Source: Verrucomicrobiota bacterium
GTDB taxonomy: Bacteria; Verrucomicrobiota; Kiritimatiellia; JAHIZV01
NCBI GenBank assembly: GCA_018814445.1
Contig: JAHIZV010000237.1
Coordinates: 49,729-113,728 of the forward strand
DNA length: 64,000 bases
Direction: 5' to 3'
This document shows positions 3,300 through 34,582 of this stretch, one piece after another. Each line of letters starts with the position of its first letter. The stretch's first letter is position 1. The notes beneath the pieces were generated by a model. The model did not search any database. It was not told the DNA's origin and saw only the letters and a list, made by a program, of their open reading frames with translations. Made by a program: the position numbers and the translations under genes.

Positions 3300-4523
3300 T
3301 TACGGCGTCCTCGTCGACCAGACGCTGAAAGCGCTCTCCAGCGGTTCCGTGCGGTCCCTGATGTAGACTTCGATGTCATTCACGACCACCTGATCACCGG
3401 GATCCAGACTCCCGTCTCCGAGCGCAGCATTGACTTGCGGCGTGATGTCTACGTACTCGTGACCGTTCGGAAGGTGCCCATCCGGCGTGACATACCGGCG
3501 TTCTGTATTCCAGTCCAACGCACACCAGAACGGCTCCGTGAGTGCAGGACCGCCTGCCCCCGAGTCATTCCGCAGCGTCAAAGTTCCGAAGAACGTACCG
3601 CGCTGACGGTCGAGAGTCCAAGTGAGCTTCGGAGACATAAGCATCGCTGTGACATTCGTGAATACCCCTGAAGCGACTTCGCCTGCCCACCACTCTTCGG
3701 CAGTCACCTGCCACGACGCACCGTTCGCCAGCGATTCACTGCGCCATTGCAGCGCGTACGCCGCGTCATGAATAGACGCATCCACCGTATCGGGAAGCGT
3801 TCCCCACTTACATGCGTTCCGCACGAGTTGAAAGTGGGCTTCATGGTGAGTGTCAGCGAGAGAGCCCCCCACCCCCTTCAACCCCATGAAGACCGGAGGA
3901 TCATTCGTGGTCAGCACGTACACGGTATTGGAACCTGCGCCCCAATGACCTGTCGCGACATCCTCGCCGGATGGAGATACATCACCGCCGTGGACAAAGC
4001 GAAGATTGTTGAAAGAGACGCCGGAACCGTTGGCGATAGTCCACTGCAGGGAGAAAAAAGGGTTCCCGTTCACATAAGAAACCAACTGGGTCACGACCAC
4101 ACCGCGTTGTCCCGCGCGAAGCGCTGTCTCAATCGACCAGGCATCGGGCATCGAATGGGAGACGGGCGTAAACCGGTCCGTACTCTCATCATCCCACAAC
4201 GCAAACGTGCTGGTACCGTTGCCAAATCGTGACGAAGCATTTGTGCCGTCGAGAAACAGAGCGGACCCTGTCGCAAAGGCAGAGTAGAATTGCGGCCGCG
4301 TCTCCGTCCCCTCCTGCCGCGTGACACCGATCGTTCCGTATTCGTCCACGCTGATCCGGAGAGGGTCGCCAGAGATTTGGAGCGTCTGCGTTGTCGCCGC
4401 CAACGGCAGCAGAACAAGAAGAGCTCCCAACATCGTACATCGAACATAACGCACCGAACATCGAAGGACTCCTGCAGTTCGGTGTTCGATGTTCAATGTT
4501 TGATGTTCGATGTTCCCGCTCAT
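3300..4523 (-). CDS. Secreted hypothetical protein (about 377 aa mature)
   Basis: The long ORF has an ATG at 4523 whose stop/start overlap with the upstream β-barrel gene is TGATG (one shared nucleotide). An alternative ATG at 4433 sits immediately before the hydrophobic signal sequence MLGALLVLLPLAATTQTLQ. The segment between the two starts is encoded by the palindromic repeat. No homolog is recognised by eye. Confidence 0.55.
   Translation of the reverse strand: MSGNIEHQTLNIEHRTAGVLRCSVRYVRCTMLGALLVLLPLAATTQTLQISGDPLRISVDEYGTIGVTRQEGTETRPQFYSAFATGSALFLDGTNASSRFGNGTSTFALWDDESTDRFTPVSHSMPDAWSIETALRAGQRGVVVTQLVSYVNGNPFFSLQWTIANGSGVSFNNLRFVHGGDVSPSGEDVATGHWGAGSNTVYVLTTNDPPVFMGLKGVGGSLADTHHEAHFQLVRNACKWGTLPDTVDASIHDAAYALQWRSESLANGASWQVTAEEWWAGEVASGVFTNVTAMLMSPKLTWTLDRQRGTFFGTLTLRNDSGAGGPALTEPFWCALDWNTERRYVTPDGHLPNGHEYVDITPQVNAALGDGSLDPGDQVVVNDIEVYIRDRTEPLESAFSVWSTRTP
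4434..4516. repeat. Imperfect palindromic (AACATCG)n repeat element, copy A of 3
   Basis: The left arm carries catcgaacat...ccgaacatcgaa. The right arm carries ttcggtgttcgatgttcaatgtttgatgttcgatgttc, with a CTGCAG centre. The same element is present at 20064-20158 and 33731-33832. Confidence 0.6.
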
Positions 4524-5788
4524 CAGAATCTCCTCCCGCCCTCAACACTCACCGAGTACCCGCTGATATCAATCGTCAACTCGTTCGGACCGATACTCCC
4601 CTTGAACTCATCGGGCACCCAGTCGTACCCGCCTGTCAGGACGGCGAACCAACTCTCGCCAAGTGCCACTTCCACACCCCCATGAAGTCCGAGACCGAAC
4701 AGCACATCGGATTCACACAGATCGTCCCGCCAACTTCCGAGGGTCGACGTCTGCCCGTTTTCCTCCGCCATCCATATCTCCCTACGATCGGCTTCGACAT
4801 CGACCAGATTCATGGAAACAATCGGGTTCAGGAAGAACGTCAAACCGCCTCCCGTCATCCACGTGAATTGAGGACCAATCCACAGCTCCAGGATCTGTGC
4901 TTCCACGTCAAAAGACACCTGATTGTAGGCCGTGATCCGGGAACTCGATCCGCCGCCGGCCGTGTAGTCCAACACTGCGCCGACCACATCCAACGACTCG
5001 GGGCGATTGGGAATGAGCGGTGATGGCGGAGGCCAGCCATCAAGGCTACCGGCGTACGGAGGCGAAGGAGGAACCACCCCCATCAAGTCATAGGTATATG
5101 TGGAGTCCTGAACGTAAGACACCGAGCCGCCTGTCCTGGTTCTGCTGATCTCTTCTGCGTACGGGGCCGCATTGAGATCAGACTCAATCCCCGGGAACCA
5201 TGTCACGCCCATGCGCAGATCGAAGGAGAAGCCCTCGTCTCGTTTGAGTCCGAGCGTTGCGCTAAGGTCGACGCCCAACGCGTCAAGATCGTCATCCAGA
5301 GAAACCGCGCTGCTCCACAACTCATCAATCGTCGTTCTCTGCTGCGATGCGCTCAACTGGAACATATCGTTGCGATGGAAGGTCAATGTGTCGGCTATGG
5401 GACTGTACTGACCCGCATTGTCATATCCCCAGTACCACGTGTCCCCGTCGTTCGGCGTTCCCGCGTCCATGAACACATACCCGTCATCGAACTGCCTGTC
5501 GGCATACTGCGTGATGTCATCAAGCGTCGGCACGGTGTACTGAAGACCCGAGTTACCGGCCGACGCGGCATGAAGCCCGTTCATCTGTACATACGACGAA
5601 CCCTCAATTTCCAGTCTCATGCCCGCGCGATAGGCGAGGCCCGCGGAGAAGCGCCAAGCGTCCGCCACGCTTCGCGTCGGCGCTAGAACAAACAACAAGA
5701 AACCAACAAGAAACAACGCATAACGGACGGGGAGCCGCGTTCCAGTGCTTGAGCGTTGATCGTTATCAGTTGATAGTTGAGCGTTCAT
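4523..5788 (-). CDS. Putative outer-membrane β-barrel protein
   Basis: ATG at 5786-5788 with a GAGGAAA RBS. Signal peptide MNAQL...LFLVGFLLFVLAPTRSVADA. Alternating amphipathic composition and a C-terminal ...SVEGGRRF ending in an aromatic residue are typical of outer-membrane β-barrels. Its start overlaps the upstream stop as ATGA. Confidence 0.6.
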   Translation of the reverse strand: MNAQLSTDNDQRSSTGTRLPVRYALFLVGFLLFVLAPTRSVADAWRFSAGLAYRAGMRLEIEGSSYVQMNGLHAASAGNSGLQYTVPTLDDITQYADRQFDDGYVFMDAGTPNDGDTWYWGYDNAGQYSPIADTLTFHRNDMFQLSASQQRTTIDELWSSAVSLDDDLDALGVDLSATLGLKRDEGFSFDLRMGVTWFPGIESDLNAAPYAEEISRTRTGGSVSYVQDSTYTYDLMGVVPPSPPYAGSLDGWPPPSPLIPNRPESLDVVGAVLDYTAGGGSSSRITAYNQVSFDVEAQILELWIGPQFTWMTGGGLTFFLNPIVSMNLVDVEADRREIWMAEENGQTSTLGSWRDDLCESDVLFGLGLHGGVEVALGESWFAVLTGGYDWVPDEFKGSIGPNELTIDISGYSVSVEGGRRF

Positions 5789-7395
5789 CACGGTTTCCTC
5801 ACCCTGAAATATCCTTTGCGATCCTCCGGCGGTGTGACCTTTGTTGTCACGCCCGTAACGGGTCCGCCCATCGGCATCCAATTCGTTCCCGGCAGAACCG
5901 GACTGAATTCGATGAGGTATACCCCGCCCTCCGATTTTCCGCTGCCGCCCTCATCCCACGTTATGGCTTTCAACCCGGCCTTGTCGTGGCCGAAGAGAAC
6001 AATACCGAGGAACTCCTTCGTGCCGCCGCCACCCCCTGCTCCGCCGCCGCCAATCCCGGGCAGTCCTGTCCATGCGTACGTGTCGTCCAGATAGACCGTT
6101 CCGGCTGACCCCGACACCCAGGAACCGGATCCCCCCGCGCTGACCATAGTCATCCCATTGGTGTTGCTGGAACCGGAAGGATAATAGACCGCGACCCTCC
6201 CCCCGCCTCCCGCGACTTCGTTGCCGCCGCCGTTAGCCCGAATGGTTCCATTGCCTGTCAGCCCGCCCGTCTCAATGTAGATCGTGCCTCCAGAACCACC
6301 CCCGGCCCCATCGCCACCCCCCGCGGAACCGTCGGCCGTTATGACACCATCCAGATCAAGCGATCCGGCCAGAATCCTGATCCAGCCGCCACCATCGCCG
6401 CCTGCCCACGAGTCACTGCCACCGCGTGATCCACCGGATCCCAGTGCCGCGGGATTCGTCGCGGTTCCGTAAACCGGATTGGGCGTGCCGCCCCCAGCGC
6501 CGCCGAGACCTCCGTACGATCCGCCGGATCGCTGTGAAGAACCGGTTGCATTGTTCAACGTGCGTCCGGAGTTGAAATTGATGTTAGGCGAGTGCTCTCC
6601 ACCCAGGTACCCGCGTCCGATCACATTGATCGAACTGTTGCTCGAAATTTGAAGTCTCTCGGCAAGTAATTGCAGCCGCGATTCCATAACCGTGGATGCA
6701 TCGAAGTGCGTCACCCCCCCGAACTGAGCCACGACCATGTTGCTCGTCACATGCAGAACATCGCCGAGAACAAGGAATCCCCCGCGTCGGAAAAAGACAT
6801 TGTCGTATACATGGACGGCAGCATAGGTGTCTCCAATCGAGGCGACATCTGTGAGCATTGTCCCACCGCTCACATCCACGGTAATGGACGTCGCGGTATT
6901 ACCGCTGACCGTGAAGACTTCTGTCTGATCCAGATTCGGGTTGACGGTGAGACCCACGAGTCCGCCCGGGAGCAGGGCCACCTTCTGATCTGTTGAGAAT
7001 TCATTGGAACTGACGGCCTGAATAGTCCCGTATCCCACCCGTGTCAAAGGAGTCCAACGCGTGGACGTGGAGCCGGATTTGTTGTCGTCAATGTACAGAT
7101 CGCCATACGTTTGTGCGTGCTGCCTCATCACAATCGTTCCGGCACTGCCCGGCGACCAAGATCCCGATCCGCCAAAAACCGTCACATTGCTGAGACTATT
7201 GAGATTATCACCTCCACCACCCAGCGCACCGTAGGTGATTCCGATCCGGCCTCCCGCACCCCCGACTTCATTTCCTCCGCCGTTCGCGGATACAGTTCCG
7301 GTGCCACGCAGGGTTCCCACTTGAATCTTAACGGACCCTCCGGACCCGCCCCCGGCTCCGTCACCATGACCGGGACCGCCCGCAGCCGTGATCGT
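5788..7395 (-). CDS. C-terminal segment of the giant Gly-rich repeat protein (same frame as 7396..15054, downstream of an in-frame TGA); ends in an FN3-like domain
   Basis: Same reading frame as the 2552-aa ORF. The repeat motifs (GDGAGGGSGG, ANGGGNEVGG, YGDLYIDDNK) continue uninterrupted across the stop. C-terminus ...GYFRVRKP. Confidence 0.5.
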   Translation of the reverse strand, partial: TITAAGGPGHGDGAGGGSGGSVKIQVGTLRGTGTVSANGGGNEVGGAGGRIGITYGALGGGGDNLNSLSNVTVFGGSGSWSPGSAGTIVMRQHAQTYGDLYIDDNKSGSTSTRWTPLTRVGYGTIQAVSSNEFSTDQKVALLPGGLVGLTVNPNLDQTEVFTVSGNTATSITVDVSGGTMLTDVASIGDTYAAVHVYDNVFFRRGGFLVLGDVLHVTSNMVVAQFGGVTHFDASTVMESRLQLLAERLQISSNSSINVIGRGYLGGEHSPNINFNSGRTLNNATGSSQRSGGSYGGLGGAGGGTPNPVYGTATNPAALGSGGSRGGSDSWAGGDGGGWIRILAGSLDLDGVITADGSAGGGDGAGGGSGGTIYIETGGLTGNGTIRANGGGNEVAGGGGRVAVYYPSGSSNTNGMTMVSAGGSGSWVSGSAGTVYLDDTYAWTGLPGIGGGGAGGGGGTKEFLGIVLFGHDKAGLKAITWDEGGSGKSEGGVYLIEFSPVLPGTNWMPMGGPVTGVTTKVTPPEDRKGYFRVRKP

Positions 7396-10300
7396 TCAAT
7401 TGACCGTCAGGTCATTCGAGACGACGAGATCGATTCGTCCACCACCGCTTCCACCGGCCCATGAATCGCTTCCGCCTCGCGAACCACCCGAACCGAGGTA
7501 GATGGGATTATGAGGGTCGCCATAGGCAGGATTGGGAGATCCTGCTCCGTAGGAAGCCCCATATCCGCCAAACGAGCCGCCCGACCTCTCCGATGAACCT
7601 ATCTGCCCCGCGAGCGTCAGTCCGTTGTTATTGTCCGTGTTGCCCGGCCTCTCACCACCTCGATAGCCTCGCGCGGTCACATCTATCGAACTCCCGGCGT
7701 CGATCTCAATGTTGTTCGCGTGAACCTGAAGGCCGTTTTCGTTGCTGAGTGTATGCGTCAGGACGCTGTTCGTCTGGAGCCGCAAGGCACCGGCCACGTT
7801 CAAGCCCGCATCTGCGGTCACCCGGGCCTTGTTCCTGAAGATGATGTTGTCGAATTCATAGCCGTCCAGGATAGGACACTTATCGATCGCGGGTTTCACA
7901 TTGTGCCCGTCAACGACCAGATCCCCATAAGTCTGGCTGGAATGCTTCAGGAACAGCGTGCCATTGCCTCCATTCGTCCAATTTCCGCTTCCGGCTCTGG
8001 CTTCAAGGTGACTCTGGTCGATAGCAAGCGTGTTGTAGCGAATGGCTATCCTTCCACCGCCACCACCGACCTCGTTGCCCCCGCCATTCGCGCGAATGAT
8101 GCCGCTTCCCGAAAGACTGTCTGCGTGTATGTCAATCGTTCCGCCCGAACCGCCTCCGGCCCCATCACCATGACCGCCCTGCCCGTTCGCGGAGATGATC
8201 CCATCATTCGCGATCGCACCCGCGGTTATGCGGACCCAACCACCGCCATCGCCACCCCACCAGGAATCACTGCCGCCACGCGAACCGCCCGAACCCAACT
8301 CCTCCGGGTTTGTCATGCTTCCATAGACGGAATTCGGCGCCCCAGCACCCCAATGACCTCCAAGTCCACCGTAGGAACCGCCCGCCCGCTCCGTGGAGCC
8401 GGCGGAGTTGTTCTCTGTCCGTCCCGAATTCACGCCGACGTTCTGATGGTGTTCGCCACCGAGATAGCCGACCGCATCGGCGTTGATATACCCGTTGCTG
8501 CTCAGTTCCAGCGTGCCTACCGTCAGATCCAGCCGTGATTCAAAGGTCGTCGTCGCTTTGAAATGCGTCAGTTTCCCGTGCTCATCGATTCTTACCGTAT
8601 CGCCAACAACGACCTTGTCTCCGCATCTGAGGGAACCGCCTCGCCGGAAGAAAATATTGTCAAAGCGATGTATCGCAGCATAACCGTCACCGGGCGCTGC
8701 CACGTCCGTGAGATTCGTGCCACCGCTCACATCGACCGTTATGGATGTCGCCGAGTTGCCGATAATGTCGAAGGTTGTCTGCTGCGTCAGGTCAGGATTG
8801 ATCTCCAGTCCGACGAGACCGCCGGGAAGGACGCGAACCGTCTGGTCCAGCAAGAGCATATTCGAGGACAACGCCTGCACCGTTCCGAAACCGACGTGCG
8901 TCAACCATGTGTAGTTTGTGGATGTCGAGACCTTGTTGTCGTCCACATACAGGTCACCGTAGCTTTGACTATGCCGCCTCATGACGACCGTTCCCGCCCC
9001 GCCCGGCGCACTCCACGTCCCGGATCCCCCGAACGCGCCGATATTGCGCAAGTCATTCAGATCGTCACTTTTCCCGCCGAGATAGTCATAGTCGATCAGA
9101 ATCCGACCGCCGCCACCGCCGATTTCGTTCCCGCCGCCATTCGCGCTGATACTACCGCTTCCTCGCAGAAGCGAGGTGTCGATCTTGATAGACCCGCCCG
9201 AGCCACCACCGGCGCCATCACCTGCACCAACCTGCCCGTCTGCCCTGATAACCCCTTCAACAACAACGGCTTCGGACGCTTCTATCGTGACCCTTCCGCC
9301 GCCGTTTCCGCCCGCCCAAGAGTCACTGCCTCCTCTCGATCCGCCGGAACCGAGGTACGCCGGGTTAAGATCCGAACCGTAAACAGGATTCGGAACCCCC
9401 GCGGAGGCGCCTCCGTATCCGCCGTACGATCCGCCTGCACTTTGAGAGGACCCCATCTGTTCCGCCAGCGTGAACCCGCTATTGTTAGGATTTCCATCGC
9501 GCTCGCCGCCGCGATAGCCCTTGGCACCCACATCGATCGAGCTGGAGGAGTCTATCTCCAGACGCTTGCACGTAATGCGTACGCCGTCGGTCAGCATCAG
9601 CGAATGCGTCATGATGCTACCGGTCAGAATCTCGATCTTGTTGCTGACTACGAGTTCATCATCGGCGACGACACGCGCCGTGTTCCTGATGATGATATTG
9701 TCGAAGACATGGCCCGGCGGGATCGGCAAAGCCGAGAAACTGGAACCCGCGCCCTGTCCATCAACGACGAGTGTTCCACCACCTTCATCGACCCCCTTGA
9801 GAAACACCGTGCCGTTTCCGCCATCGACCCAGTTGCCCTGACCGCCCAGGGCATGGAGCAGCGTCGTATCCCAAGTGTCGATGTCCACGTAGTGGACCGC
9901 AATCCGTCCACCCCCGCCCGCAACCTCGTTGCCGCCACCATCCGCGGTCAAATCGCCTCTTCCGCTCGCGGTCGTGACAATCAGGTAGACTGACCCGCCG
10001 GAACCGCCGCCGGCGCCATAGCCGTGCCCCGCCTGTCCGTCCGAAGTGATCAGGCCGTCGTTCACAATATTGATGGCCTGGATGAGAATCTTCCCGCCGC
10101 CGTCACCGCCCCACCAGGAATCACTCCCCCCGCGTGAACCACCCGACCCCAATTCGGAAGGCGCCGTTAAATCACCGTATAACGCGCACGGCGTCCCGCC
10201 CCATGCTCCACCTGTGCCTCCGTATGATCCTCCCGAACGCTGTGTAGAACCTGCGACGTTCCCTGACGTCCTCCCCTCATTCATGCCCGTGTTCGGAGCA

Positions 10301-13300: not shown

Positions 13301-15054
13301 AATACGCTGAGCCACTCATTATACAGGTGATTGCCGTCGCGGTCTCTTATCGCCTGGCTGACCCAGACCGTGTACTTCTCGCCGGGACGCCAGCGATTGA
13401 GCACACCGTCATCGACCTGCCAGATCGCCATGGAGCGGGAGCTCAGGTTCGTCTCGATCCTGATCTTCCCTTTCACCAGCCTGCCGGTGTCGTCGTAGAC
13501 GTTGAACGTACCGTTGGATCCCGTCGTTATGGTGTCGTGATTCATCAACTCGCTGAAGAACGCGACCACGGGCGACTCCGTCGAAATCCCCTGGGCGTTG
13601 TGCGCGGGCGCAACGGAGACAGCGGGAATACCCGCCGGAACGTCTGTCATCGGAGGATTGTGTCCGACCGCGCACCCGAGAGTCCCGACGACGACCTGGA
13701 GGCTGACATTCTGATCGGAGATGCCCATGCAGGATGAAATAGCCCCGCTTTCCGACGGGAGAACGGTGAAGGTCTCACTGATCGTCTCGCCCGGATCCAG
13801 ATGACCGAGCGCTCGCGTGACGGGCTCCTGCACGTATTCGCAGTCCGGCTCTCCCGTTGCCGCGTCCAGTTCACAATTCACAAGCTGCGCATCGGCGCTC
13901 ACATCGAGTTCAAGGCTGGCGTACATGGCGGGCAGTTCGCCGGTATTGAGTATTCTCACGGTCAGGTCATATGGCTCGCCGGCGATGACGAAGTCAGGAT
14001 GAAGCACGGTCACCTGGAAGTCCGGCGGCCCTTTCACTTCCACATCCGTTGTCGCGCTGCCATTAAAGGGGACGGCATCATCCCCCGCGATGCCCGGACC
14101 GACCACACTGCCCCCGAAGTTCACTGTGACGTCATGAATACCGATCTCATCGCCGCGAATGATGAACTCACGTTCCAGTTGACCCGGCTCGTCGGGGGTC
14201 CCCGGCAGAATGTCGCCGAAGGACACGATGCCATCGGCCGGTAGAGTGTGGCTCAAACCGCCGGCAGGAAACCCGATCTCGGCGACCACGTTGGAAAGCG
14301 TGAAAATACCCGATGTATTCATCAGCATCAGTCGAACAGAGAAGAACTCCTTCAGGCTCTTGATGCGGCCTTCAATAATGATCACGCCCGGTATGGGAGG
14401 AACTTCGATCGTTCCCGACGGTGAGACTTCCTGCGCGAAGAAGATGATCTCAGGCGGCAGTCTGGGTGCGTGTTTTTGCCCGGCAGGGTCGTCGGGCGGT
14501 GGCATCCTGTATGTCTCCGAACCTCCGCTGTTCCCGCCTGATCCTTTTGGAAACACAATGGGAAGGGAGATGGGGACCTCCTCTTTATCGATCGTCAGGA
14601 CGATCGTGAATGTCGACACGTTGAAGTTCTCCGGATCTTCAAGATCGATCACCCCGTCCGCAACCAACTGCTCAACTTCTTCCGTCGACAGCCGCTCCGA
14701 AGTGAGGCGCGAGACGACGATCTGATCGAGAGACAACTGCGTTACAGCGAGTTCAGCCGCTTCTGTGTTCCCGTACGAATCTGTCGCCGTCACCTGGATG
14801 TTGTTCACCGCGTTGCGGTTCAGAGGCAAATTGACCTCAAACGATCCACCCTCATCGGGAAGAACAGCGCTACCGGCGCCGCCCGGGGCGGTGACGTTGA
14901 CGGTGATTGCGGCGTCGGTCGGCATGGAGAGGCTTACGATGAGAAGAGAAAGCAGGAGAGCTGAGATGCGAATGGGAGAAAGGGAGAATGGGAGAGAGGG
15001 AGAGAATCTGCGTCTCCCATTCCTCCACTCTTCCTTTCTCCCACTCACCCTCAT
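7396..15054 (-). CDS. Giant secreted Gly-rich β-helix/β-roll repeat protein with Big_2-like Ig domains (2552 aa before the in-frame TGA)
   Basis: Long ORF with N-terminal hydrophobic segment ISALLLSLLIVSLSMPTDAA. It has at least five copies of an approximately 250-aa unit (GYLGGEH...GGSRGGSDSWxGGDGGG...GDGAGGGSGG...ANGGGNEVGGGGGRI...YGDLxVDxxNV). Big_2-like segments are also present (for example AGRVVALKRGAATISAAVGS). Its ATG overlaps the upstream stop as ATGA at 15051-15054. Confidence 0.7.
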   Translation of the reverse strand: MRVSGRKEEWRNGRRRFSPSLPFSLSPIRISALLLSLLIVSLSMPTDAAITVNVTAPGGAGSAVLPDEGGSFEVNLPLNRNAVNNIQVTATDSYGNTEAAELAVTQLSLDQIVVSRLTSERLSTEEVEQLVADGVIDLEDPENFNVSTFTIVLTIDKEEVPISLPIVFPKGSGGNSGGSETYRMPPPDDPAGQKHAPRLPPEIIFFAQEVSPSGTIEVPPIPGVIIIEGRIKSLKEFFSVRLMLMNTSGIFTLSNVVAEIGFPAGGLSHTLPADGIVSFGDILPGTPDEPGQLEREFIIRGDEIGIHDVTVNFGGSVVGPGIAGDDAVPFNGSATTDVEVKGPPDFQVTVLHPDFVIAGEPYDLTVRILNTGELPAMYASLELDVSADAQLVNCELDAATGEPDCEYVQEPVTRALGHLDPGETISETFTVLPSESGAISSCMGISDQNVSLQVVVGTLGCAVGHNPPMTDVPAGIPAVSVAPAHNAQGISTESPVVAFFSELMNHDTITTGSNGTFNVYDDTGRLVKGKIRIETNLSSRSMAIWQVDDGVLNRWRPGEKYTVWVSQAIRDRDGNHLYNEWLSVFKTTTTGLGDVDPPLLTLSIEPPVNPNYVLPGEIVRVNAYASDQGSGVARVELRIKDMSNPTNLYKLVDQKSVFHGNEPPFIFALDSSNLTTGRTYQLMATAYDGLFNGQNATISIVMAPTADPPTIVLPGDPVAPQLQGISVRLKPVALTGGVRRVRYFLDGALVPYKTVTLPPWQATLSTLTMSLTTHVVRAVAEDGLGQTGFDDYDFELVENLNMPVISFNESDGAVYVMGDIFSIDPSVEDDVGVRSIHVFIASATNLVSTNASPILINTTNLALGTHRVIVLATNNLGVANDRFDPDSYLEFTIIEPPPGVPPAAPMVTGVSPPEGLASKVTGTSVANARINIRNTNQNVAVSVYANSSGAFTATINANVGNVLSLVAYDFTQSPDPSPPTVAVVPPKPVIMSIRAYPSNAVLPSAGAFVDLVVTGFYQGGSASNVTGKATFSSSVPSVASVSSAGRVVALKRGAATISAAVGSNAATAEIFADIVKLTNITAAPKSVLLAGVGNTRQLAVTGQYNNGTSGPLNSGNTFVSGNPAIATVSLSGLITAVSDGLTQISVYRSGLPSAFVNVSVDTGMDPPPTVDILSPPSGSGVERNELVPVSVRAQDPTNGVTRIYLAVSGATTFTDQRQISPSKKDTTQVFNFTVSSNAPISGVITVRTWAVDTSAHTSTVDSIVLQLGDGTSPQVFISSPIPETAYGYGETVTVVVVASDAVGVKIVRCYATGALSSDETRIYGASVGGTNEVFSISVPFGAPYPDVTLHAEAWDDENNKGTAINVPIVLSDADITPPATEVTAVADPGVGTTATVTYEVTDGLDDLDHVEIYFRRDGYGTFNRYTDADGGNSLGHYDPGGVAVGSLIFDSAKMGGDGTYEFYSIGVDQYGNRGLPPTNATGVVTADEVRAFSAGTVWITISSPTNISLGNTAYDNVNLRIDGVTVTINGHHMFHNVELLNGAVVTHPDTTTTAEYGVDIDAWTVTVDSNSAVNVDELGYLGGEHAPNTGMNEGRTSGNVAGSTQRSGGSYGGTGGAWGGTPCALYGDLTAPSELGSGGSRGGSDSWWGGDGGGKILIQAINIVNDGLITSDGQAGHGYGAGGGSGGSVYLIVTTASGRGDLTADGGGNEVAGGGGRIAVHYVDIDTWDTTLLHALGGQGNWVDGGNGTVFLKGVDEGGGTLVVDGQGAGSSFSALPIPPGHVFDNIIIRNTARVVADDELVVSNKIEILTGSIMTHSLMLTDGVRITCKRLEIDSSSSIDVGAKGYRGGERDGNPNNSGFTLAEQMGSSQSAGGSYGGYGGASAGVPNPVYGSDLNPAYLGSGGSRGGSDSWAGGNGGGRVTIEASEAVVVEGVIRADGQVGAGDGAGGGSGGSIKIDTSLLRGSGSISANGGGNEIGGGGGRILIDYDYLGGKSDDLNDLRNIGAFGGSGTWSAPGGAGTVVMRRHSQSYGDLYVDDNKVSTSTNYTWLTHVGFGTVQALSSNMLLLDQTVRVLPGGLVGLEINPDLTQQTTFDIIGNSATSITVDVSGGTNLTDVAAPGDGYAAIHRFDNIFFRRGGSLRCGDKVVVGDTVRIDEHGKLTHFKATTTFESRLDLTVGTLELSSNGYINADAVGYLGGEHHQNVGVNSGRTENNSAGSTERAGGSYGGLGGHWGAGAPNSVYGSMTNPEELGSGGSRGGSDSWWGGDGGGWVRITAGAIANDGIISANGQGGHGDGAGGGSGGTIDIHADSLSGSGIIRANGGGNEVGGGGGRIAIRYNTLAIDQSHLEARAGSGNWTNGGNGTLFLKHSSQTYGDLVVDGHNVKPAIDKCPILDGYEFDNIIFRNKARVTADAGLNVAGALRLQTNSVLTHTLSNENGLQVHANNIEIDAGSSIDVTARGYRGGERPGNTDNNNGLTLAGQIGSSERSGGSFGGYGASYGAGSPNPAYGDPHNPIYLGSGGSRGGSDSWAGGSGGGRIDLVVSNDLTVN

Positions 15055-18000: not shown

Positions 18001-20165
18001 TTGAATGCCGCTATGGCGGCCGCGTTGTTCGGGTCACTCGGATTCGCCCACGCATCGTTCAGAATCTGCTGTAGTGCTGCAATCCATTCCGTGAAGGAGG
18101 GCGTACTCCCACTCTTCCACTTGATGCCGAAGCTCAGGTCGTAGAGCAGATCGATCAACCGCACATCTTCGCCGCGCGCGTGTCGGCGCGCATACAGTTC
18201 GACACCCTTGTGGCTGATGCTGAACAGGTTGTTTGTGTCCAATGAAGGATTCAACTCGTTGCCGAATTCATCCCATACCCCGACTTCTTCCGCGCCGAGG
18301 GTCAGAAACGTATCTCTGACCAACTCAATCGCGTCCTGCAGGTCTATCCTCCCCGACAAATCACCAAGTCCACGGCCAAGAATACTGAAAAGGCTGGCAG
18401 AAGCGGCAGACGACGGATCATAGACCGTCGGCTCAGTGGCCAGTTCGCCCACGTCCACCGGCACCCCCTGCTCGACCCCGATCGGCAGGCGGATGAGCTT
18501 GTGGTTCGTCGGATTGAGCAGAAGAATCCGGGTCCCTATCGGGACGTTAAGAAGTGTGAAGCTGCCGTCGAGAAGAGACAACGTACTGATGACCGTTCCC
18601 TCAATCGATATCAGCGCCCCGACGATCGGGCTTCCCGTCTCTGAGTCAACCAGTCTTCCACTTACCGTCGTCAGACCTTCCTTTACATGGAATGCAGGGA
18701 CCGCGACGGCTGTCTCGCTCCCAGTCTTCAACTTTACGCCCCGCGCCCCCGTCGCGGCGGACGCCGCCACGGAGATATTCGCGATCGCTTGAGTCCCATT
18801 GTTTACGGTCAGCGAGTTGACTGTGATGCCGTCACCGAACGACGCGCTGCTGCCCCCCGCCGCAAAATGTGTGACGTAGGCGCCCGTTCCCTTGCCACTG
18901 ATGAGTACGCTGACGTTGGTATCGCCCTGGCGCGCGTCTGAAGGAAAAAGCCCCGTGATCAGAGAGGCGATGATCTTCTGCGCCGGAGGAAGGTTTGTCC
19001 CCGCGTTTACGCGGCCCGTCACTCGCTGTTCCGTGAGCAGCGTCGGACTCTCGGAATCGTCCACCACCAGAACGAGTTGATTGCTTTCGGCGGTCGCCTC
19101 GATATTGCTGACGGTGACGCTGACGATCGTGTCCGTGCTGTAGAGTGATCCGTCATACGAGCGGCACGTGATGTTGTAGGTGCCGTCCTGCGAGTAGTCG
19201 GGCGCAAAGGTGATACCTCCCCCCGCCTGAACGAAAATCGCATTATCCGGCAGTGGAGAACATTCGATGCTGATTGGGTCTCCGTCGGGATCCGAGCCCG
19301 TGACCGGGATCATGACATTTTGTCCTTCATTCACCGACACCGACGCTGGCGCGGAAATGGTAGGCGGATTGTTGGTCGGTGTGACAAGAATCTGCACGAC
19401 CCTGCTCGTCGACAGGCCTGATTCATCCCACGCAGTGAACGTAACGGCGTAGACACCTTGCTGCCCCGGACTGGTTGCAAGCACGTAATCGCCTGTCGCG
19501 TTGAGACTGCTTGCAGATGTGAAGGCGGCATTAGGAAGGATAGGAGAAGCCCCGATGGAGACGACCTCCCCATCCGCATCATAACCGTAGAGTCTAAGGG
19601 CAAGCGTCTCACCCTCCATCACCACGTATGGCGGAACCTGTACAATATTCAATGTGGGCGGATGCTGCTGAAGAAGTCCACCCCGCGGACCGGGGTTATA
19701 CATGAAGCGGTCATATTTGGGCCGCTCAAATTGAAGGGCCTGACCAACGAAATGTCCTGACGCGAATTGCCCCGCCGTGAACTTCGCATCCAGATTGAAA
19801 TAGTACTTACTATACGGACCCGAGCCCTGCCCTCCGGACGCGCCCGGCATAACCACGCGATCGACGCGTCCGGAAACCAGGTCAACGGTCAGATCAATCG
19901 GCGGCATGGCTGCGGAACCGGAGTGATTCGCGGCAACGGAGGCGACCGTGGAAACCAGCGTCCCGTTCGCGCGATCCAACGCCGTGCGCGTTCTTCCCGA
20001 CATAACCTCAATCTGCGCGCTGATATCAGGAGCCTGTGCGGCGGCGTTGCGGCCCCCTAATCCCAACATCGAACATAGAACAACCAACATCGAACATCGA
20101 ATGATAAGGTGTCTTCTGTGTTGAATGTTCGGAGTTCGATGTTCGATGTTCGATGTTCTTATCAC
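15051..20165 (-). CDS. Large secreted multidomain protein (Ig/cadherin-like repeats, carboxypeptidase-regulatory-like β-sandwiches, NHL/β-propeller-like region), 1704 aa
   Basis: Long ORF. A GTG at 20163-20165 overlaps the stop of the upstream small gene as GTGA. An alternative ATG at 20090 immediately precedes the signal sequence MLVVLCSMLGLGGRNAAAQA. Motifs: PPTISAPASVSVNEGQNVMIPVTGSDPDGDPISI, GRLVDSETGSPIVGALISIEG and DGDLYAVNG...KIFKF. Confidence 0.65.
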   Translation of the reverse strand: MIRTSNIEHRTPNIQHRRHLIIRCSMLVVLCSMLGLGGRNAAAQAPDISAQIEVMSGRTRTALDRANGTLVSTVASVAANHSGSAAMPPIDLTVDLVSGRVDRVVMPGASGGQGSGPYSKYYFNLDAKFTAGQFASGHFVGQALQFERPKYDRFMYNPGPRGGLLQQHPPTLNIVQVPPYVVMEGETLALRLYGYDADGEVVSIGASPILPNAAFTSASSLNATGDYVLATSPGQQGVYAVTFTAWDESGLSTSRVVQILVTPTNNPPTISAPASVSVNEGQNVMIPVTGSDPDGDPISIECSPLPDNAIFVQAGGGITFAPDYSQDGTYNITCRSYDGSLYSTDTIVSVTVSNIEATAESNQLVLVVDDSESPTLLTEQRVTGRVNAGTNLPPAQKIIASLITGLFPSDARQGDTNVSVLISGKGTGAYVTHFAAGGSSASFGDGITVNSLTVNNGTQAIANISVAASAATGARGVKLKTGSETAVAVPAFHVKEGLTTVSGRLVDSETGSPIVGALISIEGTVISTLSLLDGSFTLLNVPIGTRILLLNPTNHKLIRLPIGVEQGVPVDVGELATEPTVYDPSSAASASLFSILGRGLGDLSGRIDLQDAIELVRDTFLTLGAEEVGVWDEFGNELNPSLDTNNLFSISHKGVELYARRHARGEDVRLIDLLYDLSFGIKWKSGSTPSFTEWIAALQQILNDAWANPSDPNNAAAIAAFNTGRNLSPNPPVLNGATRLTKLQAFIMVSGFMSAAYHHRDDWVWAPTPPEDAFVMSLGESLSKAVHDFVCGPDAVAQVPGGKAGTYTITWERLAQEMGDYPTEAVFNSTNAVNRELPGFEDILSKYYMDGTTNSLAAARLQLENAFPGNPTIANIFNKDKYGVVAAVTSLVRITATDIHLRTNFIAIAGRDYSSGSIWAPFKVSWGHGTLSPMMFLALGTDPTVTSAVLIKSLAPAAPYLHSVKEVRRNIGSAYNPLYIPFVEILFYPSPDERVKKEETYAYRLWQWQPKGTTVSERAAMKIVAAGQETTDRSDFFSPHRDTNDTAKLVFRVPFPEPGHQYYRIDCIRGSENVVKKALDNTNTLAKVKPWLSGYLDDPLAASQDQVLKLGTRNIHPGKAFIEGERLDVSALSRVGSVFVRGAGTGFAPFGHIDLVADYDKPDRIYISIPDFKFNNDRGSGAIFLYRPEKSEMVEAVSHNSLFMQPGQVGMTMDSDGDLYAVNGASQMAYGGKIFKFYMDAVTGLATGRSHVANVNYFSQTLLRGRPTSIQDIAMGSKGTDAYDEELYLADNYDTTVKKIDVSWSEQYLGSNYANLAVAYHNVAKGLWGENESWSTWPDIFAFDAWTDLEFDLTKEWLYITQGNNIVRTKGDTAQGLFINGTVFDNATSCAFCESRYATYLFIADMAANRILRVPVSDLPLLVPSDPAQYSELMTAYTFIENVPHPMDVAIADDGKALIYVTDAGVQYTRFGFTGRALTEDDQPLVGAVVKLITAGGEEKTLADGNGYYTFGGYTAASVGILDVSHPLTNFTEDIVIDWRCGSTLRPAPCVVITSPADGEIVSNGTVTVRGTIFPADTDFTLTGGTLDASGGSYPLVFTGNDNDFIVNNVPLNTGDNYLTGRAAANGPYISGVSLSTRVRRQTAPATSQAVSGVAKDGDGNPIPGATVIVKVNGFEVTELTADGCGYYHEDGLPLGVLSVEVVE
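20064..20158. repeat. Imperfect palindromic (AACATCG)n repeat element, copy B
   Basis: Left arm caacatcgaacatagaacaaccaacatcgaacatcgaatg, loop ataaggtgtcttctgtg, right arm ttgaatgttcggagttcgatgttcgatgttcgatgttc. It lies in the junction between the small secreted-protein gene and the 1704-aa gene. Confidence 0.6.
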
Positions 20166-20838: not shown

Positions 20839-20878
20839 TGTCACATTCAGGTGTGCGATCGCACACCTGAATGTGACA
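20839..20878. promoter_or_regulatory. 40-bp perfect palindrome in divergent intergenic region; candidate dimeric-regulator operator
   Basis: The sequence is TGTCACATTCAGGTGTGCGA immediately followed by its exact reverse complement TCGCACACCTGAATGTGACA. It lies between the cluster promoter (minus strand) and the trmFO start (plus strand). Confidence 0.5.
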
Positions 20879-33136: not shown

Positions 33137-33721
33137 ATGCAGGGATTAGACCCGCTTCTATGCCGTCACAGCCAATTGCTTGTTCTAAGGTGTCTGTACC
33201 GCGCCAAGGAATCGCTGACCGGCCGTGAAATAGAACGGAGAACGGGCCTCTCGAACCGGGCTACGATGCTTGCGCTTGAAAGCCTGGTTGAAGCATCAGC
33301 CGTCAACCTCGACATCACTTCAACGGCGCATTGGTACGAGCTCAACCAGAACCACTACTTTGTCGCCAAAGCCCTGAAACCCGCTTTTGAGGCCGAAGAC
33401 CTGTTCTGGGACGACCTGAGGAAGACGGTCAGGAAGATCGTTCATCCACGCCCGCTGGCGGCTGTCGCGACGGGTCCCCTGGCTCGAGACGAAACCGCCT
33501 TTGCGGGACGTGTTGACCTGTCCATGGTGTTTTCGACCGGCAGGGCTCGAATCCGCGCCTTCAAATCAATCGAAGAACTGAAAGAGGGCGTATGGGACCG
33601 CTACGCCATCCAGATCGAGCCCATCCTTCTGGATGTAAATACGATGGACGAGGAGGAATACGACACGCTCTGGCGCCGGGTGGAAAGAGAAGGTATTCTG
33701 CTGTTCGGAACGCTGCCCTAG
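33137..33721 (+). CDS. Hypothetical winged-helix DNA-binding protein with an uncharacterised C-terminal domain
   Basis: N-terminal segment LLVLRCLYRAKESLTGREIERRTGLSNRATMLALESLVEA resembles a MarR/ArsR-type winged helix. It is divergent from mreB. No catalytic motifs recognised. Confidence 0.4.
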   Translation: MQGLDPLLCRHSQLLVLRCLYRAKESLTGREIERRTGLSNRATMLALESLVEASAVNLDITSTAHWYELNQNHYFVAKALKPAFEAEDLFWDDLRKTVRKIVHPRPLAAVATGPLARDETAFAGRVDLSMVFSTGRARIRAFKSIEELKEGVWDRYAIQIEPILLDVNTMDEEEYDTLWRRVEREGILLFGTLP

Positions 33722-33730
33722 CCGCTGCGC

Positions 33731-33832
33731 GGAACATCGAACGCCGAACATGAAACATCGAACTTCAAATCGAAGTCATTGATGTCCATACTTCGATGTT
33801 CGTTGTTCGAAGTTTGATATGTTCGTTGTTTC
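33731..33832. repeat. Imperfect palindromic (AACATCG)n repeat element, copy C
   Basis: Left arm ggaacatcgaacgccgaacatgaaacatcgaacttcaaatcgaagt. Right arm acttcgatgttcgttgttcgaagtttgatatgttcgttgtttc. It ends at the maf start codon. Confidence 0.55.
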
Positions 33833-34414
33833 ATGAAGCTAATCCTCGCATCTCATTCCCTCGCGCGGGCAGCCTTGATGGAGGCTGCGGGCTATCAGTT
33901 CACGCGTATTCCCTCGGACGTCCCCGAACCGCCTTTGCGGGCTGATGAAGATCTGGAGTCGTATGCGGTTCGCCTTGCGGAGTTGAAAGCAAGAGAAGTC
34001 TCCAGGCTTCACCCCGACTCTTTTGTTCTCGGTGCGGATACGATCCTCTACCTGGATCACGAAACGATCGGCAAACCGGCGGATCTTGATGACGCATTTC
34101 AGATCCTGAAGAAACTCGGCGGGAGGACACACGAACTCTCCTCAGGAATCTGCGTCGTGTCACCCGGAGCGGACAACGTTTTCACCGACGCCGACACAGC
34201 ACATGTGACGATGCGGGAATGGAGTGACGACCGAATACGACAACACGTCGAACTGGTGAGACCTCTTCGTTTTGCAGGAGCCTATGCGCTGCAAGGAGAA
34301 GGCGCAGTTATGGTGAAACATCTGGACGGAGACCCCAACACCGTGATCGGCCTTCCGATGGGACTGGTTGAGGACCTGCTGGATAAAGCGGGATACCGGA
34401 TGCCGGATACCTGA
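33833..34414 (+). CDS. maf: Maf-like nucleoside triphosphate pyrophosphatase
   Basis: MKLILASHSLARAALMEAAGYQF... matches the Maf/YhdE N-terminus. 193 aa. Confidence 0.8.
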   Translation: MKLILASHSLARAALMEAAGYQFTRIPSDVPEPPLRADEDLESYAVRLAELKAREVSRLHPDSFVLGADTILYLDHETIGKPADLDDAFQILKKLGGRTHELSSGICVVSPGADNVFTDADTAHVTMREWSDDRIRQHVELVRPLRFAGAYALQGEGAVMVKHLDGDPNTVIGLPMGLVEDLLDKAGYRMPDT

Positions 34415-34582
34415 TACCGGATTCCGGGGGCCGTCTTCGCGAGCTAAGTCCATGGGATTCGGGAGGAATACGGTGAAGGCGAAGCGATCCAACGTGCAAC
34501 GAGGCTGGATTGCTTCACCGTCGATCTGGTGAAAACGTCAGGGCAAACAGTTCACAATGACGCTCGCGGCATCCGGCATCAA

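What the first reader, a model, noticed from the sequence alone, without database searches (positions are those of the whole stretch)
4434..4516. Novel imperfect palindromic (AACATCG)n repeat family at three gene junctions (4434-4516, 20064-20158, 33731-33832)
Three elements of roughly 85-100 bp share arms built from AACATCGAAC / GTTCGATGTT heptamer iterations around a short loop. Each can fold into a long imperfect hairpin on either strand. All three sit at the 5' end of a gene, directly after the preceding gene's stop: the 3300..4523 secreted protein, the 1704-aa protein and maf. This is reminiscent of REP/BIME-type intercistronic palindromes that modulate mRNA stability or translation, or of a miniature mobile element. 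No inverted-repeat termini or target-site duplications were recognised by eye.
Basis: seen in the sequence. Interest (0 to 1): 0.65.

Follow-up and report, generated by a model that had tools for sequence, protein, structure and literature searches.

The report
Hairpins built from inverted heptamer repeats
Three gene junctions in this Verrucomicrobia-type genome are filled by long hairpins, each made of two opposed runs of the 7-base unit AACATCG; they belong to a little-studied kind of repeat-built hairpin between genes, not to a mobile or REP element, and probably set how neighbouring genes of an operon are expressed.

Summary
Three 87-100 nt elements (4429-4515, 20065-20158, 33733-33830) consist of a degenerate (AACATCG)n array, an unrelated loop, and a (CGATGTT)n array. 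All fold stably (-36 to -46 kcal/mol). Each starts 4-9 nt after the stop of the upstream co-directional gene and reaches the start region of the next gene.

They are not REP/BIME elements or MITEs. The loops are unrelated, there are no target duplications and no GTAG/CGTC head. They are inverted pairs of heptanucleotide simple-sequence arrays.

The same unit forms arrays in at least 120 stretches of species-representative genomes from many phyla, about 46% of them PVC. Permuted control heptamers are about as common in viral contigs, so shared sequence does not imply shared descent.

The key evidence is an orthologous series at a dehydrogenase E1alpha-E1beta junction in Limisphaerales. The hairpin persists across lineages with 83-100% identical E1alpha. 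Both arms switch unit together (AACATCG/CGATGTT to AACATCC/GGATGTT). One lineage has an unrelated unit, and two lineages have an empty site.

What is kept is a hairpin in the spacer between two genes, not a sequence. The most likely role is an RNA hairpin that affects termination, mRNA processing and translational coupling. This role is inferred, not shown.

The parts
4429..4465 (.). Element 1, left arm: degenerate (AACATCG) x5.3.
   Evidence: TRF period 7; sequence.
4466..4476 (.). Element 1, loop. It is unrelated to the loops of the other elements.
4477..4515 (.). Element 1, right arm: (CGATGTT) x5.6. On the sense (-) strand this is the arm next to the upstream stop codon (TGA 4525-4523).
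20065..20101 (.). Element 2, left arm: (AACATCG) x5.3. On the sense (-) strand this is the 3' arm and holds the candidate ATG starts at 20090 and 20069.
20102..20124 (.). Element 2, loop.
20125..20158 (.). Element 2, right arm: (CGATGTT) x4.9, including 25 nt of perfect repeat. The main stem starts 4 nt after the stop TGA at 20164-20162 (- strand).
33733..33767 (.). Element 3, left arm: five degenerate AACATCG units. It starts 11 nt after the TAG at 33719-33721; the paired stem starts 9 nt after it.
33768..33791 (.). Element 3, loop.
33792..33830 (.). Element 3, right arm: degenerate (CGATGTT) x5.3. It ends 2 nt before the maf ATG at 33833. An in-frame TGA at 33815 shows that this element is not translated as part of maf.
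14970..15046 (-). Same architecture with a different unit: inverted arrays of GGGAGAA/GAATGGGA-type units. The hairpin (dG -58 kcal/mol) lies directly after the stop of the 1704-aa gene, at the 5' end of the 2552-aa gene.
5749..5789 (-). Single, unpaired heptamer array (CGATCAA-like x5.9 in sense) at the 5' end of the 421/452-aa gene, right after the stop of the 510-aa ORF.
34391..34427 (+). Single heptamer array (GGATACC x5.3) spanning the maf stop codon.

Best explanation
Each element is an inverted pair of degenerate tandem arrays of one 7-nt unit, (AACATCG)n - loop - (CGATGTT)n. Together they fill the spacer between two co-transcribed genes.

The elements are not copies of a transposable sequence. 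The arrays arise and are kept up locally, by slippage and by concerted change of the two arms.

On the operon mRNA each element folds into a 30-40 bp imperfect hairpin. The hairpin begins 4-9 nt after the upstream stop codon and buries, or directly abuts, the downstream start region.

Inferred mechanism: the hairpin sets expression at the junction in three ways.
(a) It hinders the terminating ribosome and 3'-5' exonucleases, as REPs within 15 nt of a stop do.
(b) It offers a long double-stranded target for RNase III, as the heptamer-repeat hairpin of the H. influenzae hmw1A 5'-UTR does.
(c) It makes translation of the downstream gene depend on ribosomes arriving from the upstream gene, or on processing.

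Shown here: the anatomy, the folding, the position, recurrence in other genomes, persistence at an orthologous junction and co-variation of the arms. Inferred only: that the hairpin acts as RNA and that it has these effects.
For: Anatomy and significance.

Position: the stems start 8, 4 and 9 nt after the upstream stops. No promoter-like or terminator-like site coincides with any element.

Other genomes, from 120 stretches of species-representative genomes:
- Neighbouring AACATCG arrays within 120 nt are in opposite orientation 43 times and in the same orientation 9 times.
- Paired elements lie a median of 7 nt after an upstream stop (14 of 21 within 15 nt). Single arrays lie a median of 62 nt after one (8 of 25 within 15 nt). 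Mann-Whitney p = 2e-4.

Orthologous series:
- The E1alpha-E1beta junction carries the hairpin in lineages whose E1alpha is 100, 96, 94, 85 and 83% identical.
- dG is -48 kcal/mol in the 100% lineage and -61 kcal/mol in the 94% lineage; the other lineages were not folded separately.
- 90.5% of pair cells form a standard pair, against 86.9% in shuffles (1 of 500 shuffles as high).
- The covariation score is 0.171 against 0.118 in shuffles (3 of 500).
- 6 of 42 pairs show a change on both sides.
- In the 94% lineage both arms changed unit together (AACATCG/CGATGTT to AACATCC/GGATGTT).
- The 90% lineage has a hairpin of an unrelated unit (GGCAGAA/TTCTGCC) at the same place.
- The next junction (E1beta-E2) carries hairpins of yet other hepta- and octamer units.

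The window shows the same mixture: AACATCG hairpins plus a GGGAGA-type hairpin.

Precedents: hmw1A heptamer-repeat hairpin cut by RNase III (PMC12721329); REPs within 15 nt of a stop stall ribosomes (Liang 2015, as cited in PMC12306157).
Against: There is no direct evidence of transcription, processing or any effect on expression.

Sense and antisense strands fold equally well: the sense strand is more stable in 11 of 26 elements, p = 0.22. G-U versus A-C mismatches in the orthologous series show no strand bias (12 versus 9 cells, counted). Selection at the RNA level therefore cannot be told apart from maintenance of a DNA palindrome.

Across unrelated genomes, the two arms of a pair are no more complementary than arms taken from different elements (0.90 versus 0.89). 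Arm lengths are uncorrelated (r = 0.01). Loops range from 0 to 109 nt.

Both arm orders occur (29 type A, 18 type B), so there is no fixed RNA design.

Empty junctions exist in close relatives (L350, L362/L363), so the hairpin is dispensable.

Elements 1 and 2 may be translated. Their ORFs are open back to ATGA/GTGA overlap starts that have SD-like motifs at -8 to -14.

The covariation test rests on only 5 related sequences.
Confidence: 0.45

Rival explanations
1. By-product without function. Replication slippage makes heptamer arrays, and palindrome-templated repair or gene conversion keeps two opposed arrays alike. Such structures survive only in spacers where a folded insert does no harm.
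For: Period 7 dominates all tandem arrays in the 120 loci: 291 arrays with 95 different units. Composition-matched permuted heptamers are about as common as AACATCG in viral contigs (9, 33 and 21 stretches against 32). Empty sites occur in close relatives. Units turn over and the arm order varies. There is no strand bias. Relatives of the window organism at about 70% protein identity have no arrays at all in about 20 kb each.
Against: The hairpin persists at one junction while four-fold degenerate sites fall to 58-65% identity, and the arms stay about 90% paired. Both arms changed unit together. Paired elements are much closer to stop codons than single arrays. Inverted neighbours outnumber direct ones 43 to 9. 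Gene conversion within a palindrome could, however, produce the first two effects without any selection.
Confidence: 0.3
2. Double-stranded DNA sites for a nucleoid-associated or global regulatory protein that reads the repeated unit, as was proposed for the paired hepta- and octanucleotide arrays of Geobacter metallireducens (IHF/HU).
For: Paired inverted arrays at variable spacing are what that paper describes (PMC2700814). The variable loop length (0-109 nt) and the lack of strand bias fit a DNA-level site.
Against: At one orthologous junction the unit changes to unrelated sequences while position and inverted layout stay. One genome carries several unrelated units. Neither fits one sequence-specific reader. 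No sigma-70-type promoter-like site is found at the window elements. The window elements lie inside an operon rather than in a control region.
Confidence: 0.07
3. Phase-variation (contingency) switches. Gain or loss of 7-nt units shifts the reading frame, or changes 5'-UTR length, of surface-protein genes.
For: Elements 1 and 2 and two other arrays sit at the 5' ends of genes for giant Ig/cadherin-like secreted proteins. Their ORFs are open through the arrays from upstream starts. Element 2 has 3.5 perfect units. Heptamer repeats do drive phase variation of HMW adhesins (PMC12721329).
Against: Most units are interrupted (60-85% match). Element 3 and many elements elsewhere precede housekeeping genes such as maf, minD, E1beta and cas2. 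Among 19 contigs from different samples in the 90-100% lineages the unit number never differs within a lineage; the only change is one whole-hairpin absence.
Confidence: 0.06
4. A miniature mobile element (MITE) or a REP/REPIN spread by a transposase.
For: There are several copies in 64 kb, and the element is palindromic and extragenic.
Against: The loops are unrelated and the arm composition differs between copies. There is no target-site duplication at filled versus empty sites and no GTAG/CGTC head. Arm lengths are uncorrelated. Single arrays of the same unit are more common than pairs.
Confidence: 0.03

Closest known systems
Heptanucleotide long simple-sequence repeats (LSSR, Mrazek 2007) and cyanobacterial STRR; TAACTGA repeats of Beggiatoaceae (PMC4679880)
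   Same: Tandem 7-nt units, mostly intergenic. Several units occur per genome. The taxonomic distribution is sporadic. They often lie just upstream of start codons in genes without a Shine-Dalgarno sequence.
   Different: Those are described as direct arrays; MacGregor found 169 direct sets and a single indirect one. Here the arrays are in opposed pairs that form 30-40 bp hairpins abutting the upstream stop codon.
Paired 'global regulator binding sites' of Geobacter metallireducens (classes 1-3; PMC2700814)
   Same: Three to five tandem hepta-, octa- or nonanucleotide units occur as pairs on opposite strands at variable distance, in intergenic spacers such as proB-proA.
   Different: The units differ. 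Those sites were interpreted, without experiment, as IHF/HU sites on DNA. No orthologous comparison or RNA folding was reported.
hmw1A 5'-UTR hairpin of Haemophilus influenzae (PMC12721329)
   Same: A heptamer repeat is transcribed and forms one arm of a long RNA hairpin upstream of a giant adhesin gene. RNase III cuts it and expression changes.
   Different: There the right arm is a G-rich non-repeat region, the repeats are perfect and hypervariable in number, and the site is a promoter-proximal 5'-UTR. Here both arms are degenerate arrays, the unit number is stable, and the site lies between genes of an operon.
REP/BIME elements of enterobacteria and pseudomonads
   Same: Extragenic imperfect palindromes lie between co-transcribed genes. 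Many start within 15 nt of a stop codon, where they stall ribosomes and stabilise upstream mRNA (Liang 2015, via PMC12306157).
   Different: REPs are 20-40 nt long, have a conserved consensus with a GTAG/CGTC head, and are mobilised by RAYT transposases. These elements are 87-100 nt long, are built of tandem units, have unrelated loops and lack that head.

Membership tests
Heptanucleotide simple-sequence repeats (LSSR/STRR-like) | Head-to-tail copies of a 7-nt unit, three or more copies, longer than chance allows | tested here: met
   TRF finds period 7 with 4.9-5.6 copies in all six arms. The 14-mer hits 17 times against 1.0 expected.
Heptanucleotide simple-sequence repeats (LSSR/STRR-like) | Several loci and several units per genome, mainly outside genes | tested here: met
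   The window has six AACATCG arrays plus GGATACC and CGATCAA-like heptamer arrays and one octamer (GAAAGGGA-type) array pair. In the 120 loci from other genomes there are 291 period-7 arrays with 95 units.
REP/BIME | 20-40 nt palindrome with a conserved consensus and a GTAG or CGTC head | tested here: not met
   The elements are 87-100 nt long, the arms begin with AACATCG, and the loops share nothing.
REP/BIME | Associated RAYT (Y1 transposase) gene in the genome | not testable with these tools
   Only 64 kb of the source genome is available, and the look-up did not return its 137-kb contig.
REP/BIME | Extragenic, close to the 3' end of a gene | tested here: met
   The stems start 4-9 nt after upstream stops. 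The median is 7 nt for pairs in other genomes.
MITE | Terminal inverted repeats around a conserved interior, with target-site duplication; filled versus empty sites differ by element plus duplication | tested here: not met
   The interiors are unrelated. The filled and empty E1alpha-E1beta junctions show no duplicated target.
Phase-variable contingency locus | Uninterrupted repeat tract whose unit number differs between close strains | tested here: not met
   The tracts are mostly interrupted. There is no unit-number difference within lineages among 19 contigs of the orthologous series. This was not testable for the window elements themselves, because no close relative exists.
Intrinsic terminator | G+C-rich hairpin followed by a run of U | tested here: not met
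   No terminator-like site is found at any element. The 3' arms are followed by GGGA..., or by TC and then ATG.
hmw-type repeat hairpin processed by RNase III | Heptamer repeat forms an arm of a long RNA hairpin upstream of the regulated gene | tested here: met
   Folds. The position at the 5' end of the downstream genes is shown.
hmw-type repeat hairpin processed by RNase III | Cleavage by RNase III changes expression | not testable with these tools
   This needs RNA end-mapping and an rnc mutant.
Any Rfam family | Match at or above the gathering score | tested here: not met
   There are 0 matches at gathering score. With permissive E-values only generic hairpin matches to eukaryotic miRNA precursors appear, far below threshold.

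The most novel reading that the evidence does not exclude
Inverted short-unit arrays are a general and so far unnamed way for bacteria, especially PVC phyla, Desulfobacterota and Acidobacteriota, to build and retune long RNA hairpins between genes of an operon. Selection acts on the hairpin. Slippage plus inter-arm conversion lets both arms change unit together. The hairpin sets subunit stoichiometry by coupling translation, stalling termination or guiding RNase III.
Probability: 0.25. Interest if true: 0.7.

Novelty: new variant of a known kind. Interest (0 to 1): 0.5.

Why it matters
If the hairpin is what is kept, simple-sequence repeats are raw material for evolving gene-junction control elements, not only mutational noise or phase-variation switches. 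The two arms can be rewritten together while position and fold stay. This would explain the unexplained 'paired sites' of Geobacter and many heptamer arrays in uncultured phyla. It would also offer easily tunable hairpins for operon design in organisms that mostly lack Shine-Dalgarno sequences. For annotation there are two practical points. These elements mislead start-codon calling at the 5' ends of secreted-protein genes, and they often break metagenome assemblies, since many hits lie at contig ends.

Tried and rejected
1. Rfam, at gathering score and with permissive E-values: nothing relevant.

2. Full-text search for the repeat sequence: one irrelevant yeast paper.

3. Orthologous comparison of the window junctions:
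- A metagenome scan with Maf found no relative.
- The nearest relatives of the 194-aa protein are only about 70% identical. They lack both the 194aa-maf junction and any heptamer arrays.
- The look-up of P0013 was not on record.
- I therefore switched to an AACATCG hairpin in a Limisphaerales MAG that has many relatives.

4. Is the AACATCG unit special across phyla? Rejected: permuted control units are similarly frequent in viral contigs, and TAACTGA is far more frequent.

5. Mirrored variants within pairs across unrelated genomes: none. Within-pair complementarity equals that between different elements, and arm lengths are uncorrelated.

6. Strand asymmetry of folding as a sign of RNA-level selection: none.

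7. Copy-number polymorphism between related viral contigs or between the 120 loci: only exact duplicates, or no homologues.

8. Ideas considered from memory and dropped as not fitting the spacing or symmetry: LexA boxes (GAAC/GTTC), tRNA T-loop mimicry (GTTCGAN), parS and SARP/OmpR direct repeats.

9. Promoter and terminator scans: nothing at the elements.

Full report
OBSERVATION

Each has a run of about five degenerate AACATCG units, a loop of 11-24 nt, and a run of about five CGATGTT units.

- A two-unit 14-mer with up to 2 mismatches occurs 17 times in the window against 1.0 expected. Sixteen of the hits fall in the three clusters.
- TRF calls period 7 in all six arms.
- The repeat finder reports inverted arms of 27-37 nt at 78-92% complementarity.
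- Each element folds into one long imperfect hairpin on either strand: dG -36 to -46 kcal/mol, z -3.1 to -7.2.
- An alignment of the three shows that only the repeat units are shared. The loops have nothing in common.

CONTEXT IN THE WINDOW

The source is an NCBI metagenome-assembled genome labelled 'Verrucomicrobia bacterium'. Its nearest relatives are Kiritimatiellia and Lentisphaerae bins.

Elements 1 and 2 lie in a minus-strand operon (20815 down to 3300) encoding giant secreted proteins with Ig- and cadherin-like domains. Element 3 lies between a MarR-like gene and maf.

In each case the main stem starts 4-9 nt after the upstream stop codon. Element 3 ends 2 nt before the maf ATG and carries an in-frame TGA, so it is not translated as part of maf.

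For elements 1 and 2 the downstream reading frame stays open through the element, back to a start codon that overlaps the upstream stop (ATGA at 4523, GTGA at 20165). SD-like G-rich motifs lie at -8 to -14. A perfect AACATCG or CGATGTT repeat has no stop codon in any frame, so an open frame by itself is weak evidence. Alternative starts lie in or just after the 3' arm: GTG 4454 and ATG 4433 for element 1, ATG 20090 and 20069 for element 2. These would give ordinary signal peptides. I cannot decide between the alternatives. Under either one, the initiation region sits inside or against a hairpin of about -40 kcal/mol.

The same operon holds a fourth hairpin with the same layout but a different unit: GGGAGAA/GAATGGGA type, 14970-15046, dG -58 kcal/mol. 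It also holds a single CGATCAA-like array at 5749-5789. A GGATACC array spans the maf stop. No promoter-like or terminator-like site coincides with any element. Rfam has nothing.

OTHER GENOMES

By my own estimate, chance would give about 4.

Of the 80 titles listed, by my tally, 37 are PVC bacteria: 25 Verrucomicrobiota, 8 Planctomycetota, 3 Lentisphaerae and 1 Chlamydiota. A further 16 are Desulfobacterota-type, and the rest include Acidobacteriota, Bacteroidota, Firmicutes and others. A few are isolates and one is a complete genome.

My scripts found the following in these loci:
- 131 single arrays.
- 29 pairs in the order AACATCG...CGATGTT (type A, like the window).
- 18 pairs in the reverse order (type B).
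- About 21 further 'singles' that have a degenerate inverted partner.
- Neighbouring arrays within 120 nt are in opposite orientation 43 times and in the same orientation 9 times.
- Gene context is mostly co-directional, as for any intergenic site.
- Pairs lie a median of 7 nt after the upstream stop, singles 62 nt (p = 2e-4). The ORF calls behind this are crude.
- In some genomes the arrays are clearly translated as N-terminal leaders of pseudopilin-like proteins.

IS THE UNIT SPECIAL? A CONTROL

In viral contigs the AACATCG 19-mer occurs in 32 stretches. Three composition-matched permuted units occur in 9, 33 and 21 stretches. The published TAACTGA unit occurs in at least 120.

In the 120 loci, period 7 dominates all tandem arrays: 291 arrays with 95 units, of which 136 are AACATCG and many others are one-base variants.

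The cross-phylum spread of AACATCG therefore does not show common descent or a shared reader. Heptamer arrays of many units are simply common, as Mrazek reported (cited in PMC4679880).

TESTS THAT CAME OUT NEGATIVE

- Across unrelated genomes the two arms of a pair are no more complementary than arms of different elements (0.90 versus 0.89).
- Arm lengths are uncorrelated (r = 0.01), and loops range from 0 to 109 nt.
- Sense and antisense strands fold equally well.

THE ORTHOLOGOUS SERIES

The window organism has no close relative. Its 70%-identity relatives have no arrays and a different gene order. I therefore followed a type A AACATCG hairpin in a Limisphaerales bin (L075). It lies between the E1alpha and E1beta genes of a 2-oxoacid dehydrogenase, for which many close relatives exist.

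At the E1alpha-E1beta junction:
- The 100% and 96% lineages have the same hairpin apart from two point changes.
- One contig with the 96% protein (L350) and the 93% lineage (L362/L363) have an empty 33-nt junction (AAAACATCCGGTTTTT...) with no structure.
- In the 94% lineage both arms have switched to AACATCC/GGATGTT.
- The 85% and 83% lineages have mixed AACATCG/AACATCC/AACATTC arms.
- The 90% lineage has a hairpin of an unrelated unit (GGCAGAA.../...TTCTGCC) at the same place.

An alignment of the five AACATC-type versions gives these results:
- 42 consensus pairs, 6 with a change on both sides.
- 90.5% of cells paired against 86.9% in shuffles (1 of 500 as high).
- Covariation score 0.171 against 0.118 (3 of 500).
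- Sliding the partner columns drops pairing to 31-44%.

Four-fold degenerate sites of E1alpha fall to 58-65% identity between the deepest lineages, and loop plus flanks fall to 50-54%, while the hairpin stays.

Unit number does not vary within lineages among 19 contigs from different samples.

The next junction (E1beta-E2) shows the same behaviour with other units:
- CATCTTC-type hairpins in some lineages.
- A nested hairpin of about 180 nt built of octamers in others.
- An empty junction in four contigs.
- A single direct (AAATCGT) x3.5 array in one contig.

WHAT IT IS

These are inverted pairs of short-unit tandem arrays that fill spacers between genes of an operon, directly after a stop codon. 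They are long-lived at a given junction and are occasionally lost cleanly. Their unit can be rewritten in both arms together or replaced altogether.

The three window elements are three local instances that share a unit. They are not three copies of one mobile sequence.

HOW IT MOST LIKELY WORKS (INFERRED)

Once the operon is transcribed, a 30-40 bp hairpin will form. Its position predicts three effects, each known from studied systems:
- Hindrance of the terminating ribosome and of 3' exonucleases, as for REPs within 15 nt of a stop (Liang 2015, via PMC12306157).
- Cleavage by RNase III, as in the heptamer-repeat hairpin of the hmw1A 5'-UTR (PMC12721329).
- Occlusion of the downstream start, so that the downstream gene is translated mainly by ribosomes that have just opened the base of the stem.

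I give this about 0.45.

The main rival, at about 0.30, is a self-maintaining by-product of slippage and intra-palindrome conversion with no function. It fits the empty sites, the lack of strand bias and the free arm order. Gene conversion could mimic the co-variation.

The other rivals are less likely:
- Sequence-specific DNA-binding sites (the Geobacter proposal, PMC2700814) fit poorly with unit replacement at a fixed site.
- Phase variation fits poorly with interrupted units, stable unit number and housekeeping neighbours.
- MITE or REP membership fails its defining features.

NOVELTY

Heptamer arrays, paired arrays in Geobacter and one repeat-armed RNA hairpin are already known. I did not find the following described: the inverted-array hairpin as a recurrent junction element across phyla, the AACATCG unit, or the evidence for persistence with concerted unit change. 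The literature held by the tool is incomplete.

I rate this a new variant of a known kind, of moderate interest.

Noticed in passing
window 20839-20878: A perfect 40-nt palindrome (TGTCACATTCAGGTGTGCGATCGCACACCTGAATGTGACA), single copy in the window. It lies in the divergent spacer between the first gene of the surface-protein operon (start 20815, - strand) and the trmFO-like gene (start 20913, + strand). It looks like an operator.
   Followed up: partly
window 7396-7398: The 2552-aa and 510-aa ORFs are in the same frame and carry the same Gly-rich repeat type. A single TGA separates them. This could be read-through, a recent pseudogene or a sequence error.
   Followed up: no
window 14970-15046: A hairpin of inverted GGGAGAA/GAATGGGA-type units (dG -58 kcal/mol) lies at the 5' end of the 2552-aa gene. 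The only in-frame start upstream of its signal peptide is the ATG at 15054, which overlaps the previous stop, so this hairpin is probably translated.
   Followed up: partly
window 5749-5789 and 34391-34427: Two single heptamer arrays of other units: CGATCAA-like at the 5' end of the 421/452-aa gene, and GGATACC across the maf stop codon.
   Followed up: partly
window 45566-63292: A single ORF of 5908 aa on the minus strand. The window is rich in giant repeat proteins.
   Followed up: no
L129, L133, L142, L156, L158 (IMGVR_UViG_3300012347_000612): One 40.5-kb contig classed as viral carries at least seven AACATCG arrays, including an inverted pair in L142. So phages or prophage regions carry these arrays too.
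   Followed up: no
L109 4029-4117 and 4807-4933: In a type II secretion/pseudopilin gene cluster the loop and 3' arm of type B elements appear to encode the N-terminal leaders of a prepilin-like protein (..KQGFTLLELLVAL) and a GspK-like protein (MRFALTSNTEHRISDRGIALLLVLW..).
   Followed up: partly
L350 2527-2565; L362 2527-2565: The empty E1alpha-E1beta junction keeps a small remnant, AAAACATCCGGTTTTT. This is either the seed from which the two arms grew or the scar of a clean deletion.
   Followed up: partly
L023, L060: Contigs binned as 'Citrobacter freundii' carry CGATGNT/ANCATCG hairpins unlike anything expected in Enterobacteriaceae. The binning is doubtful.
   Followed up: no
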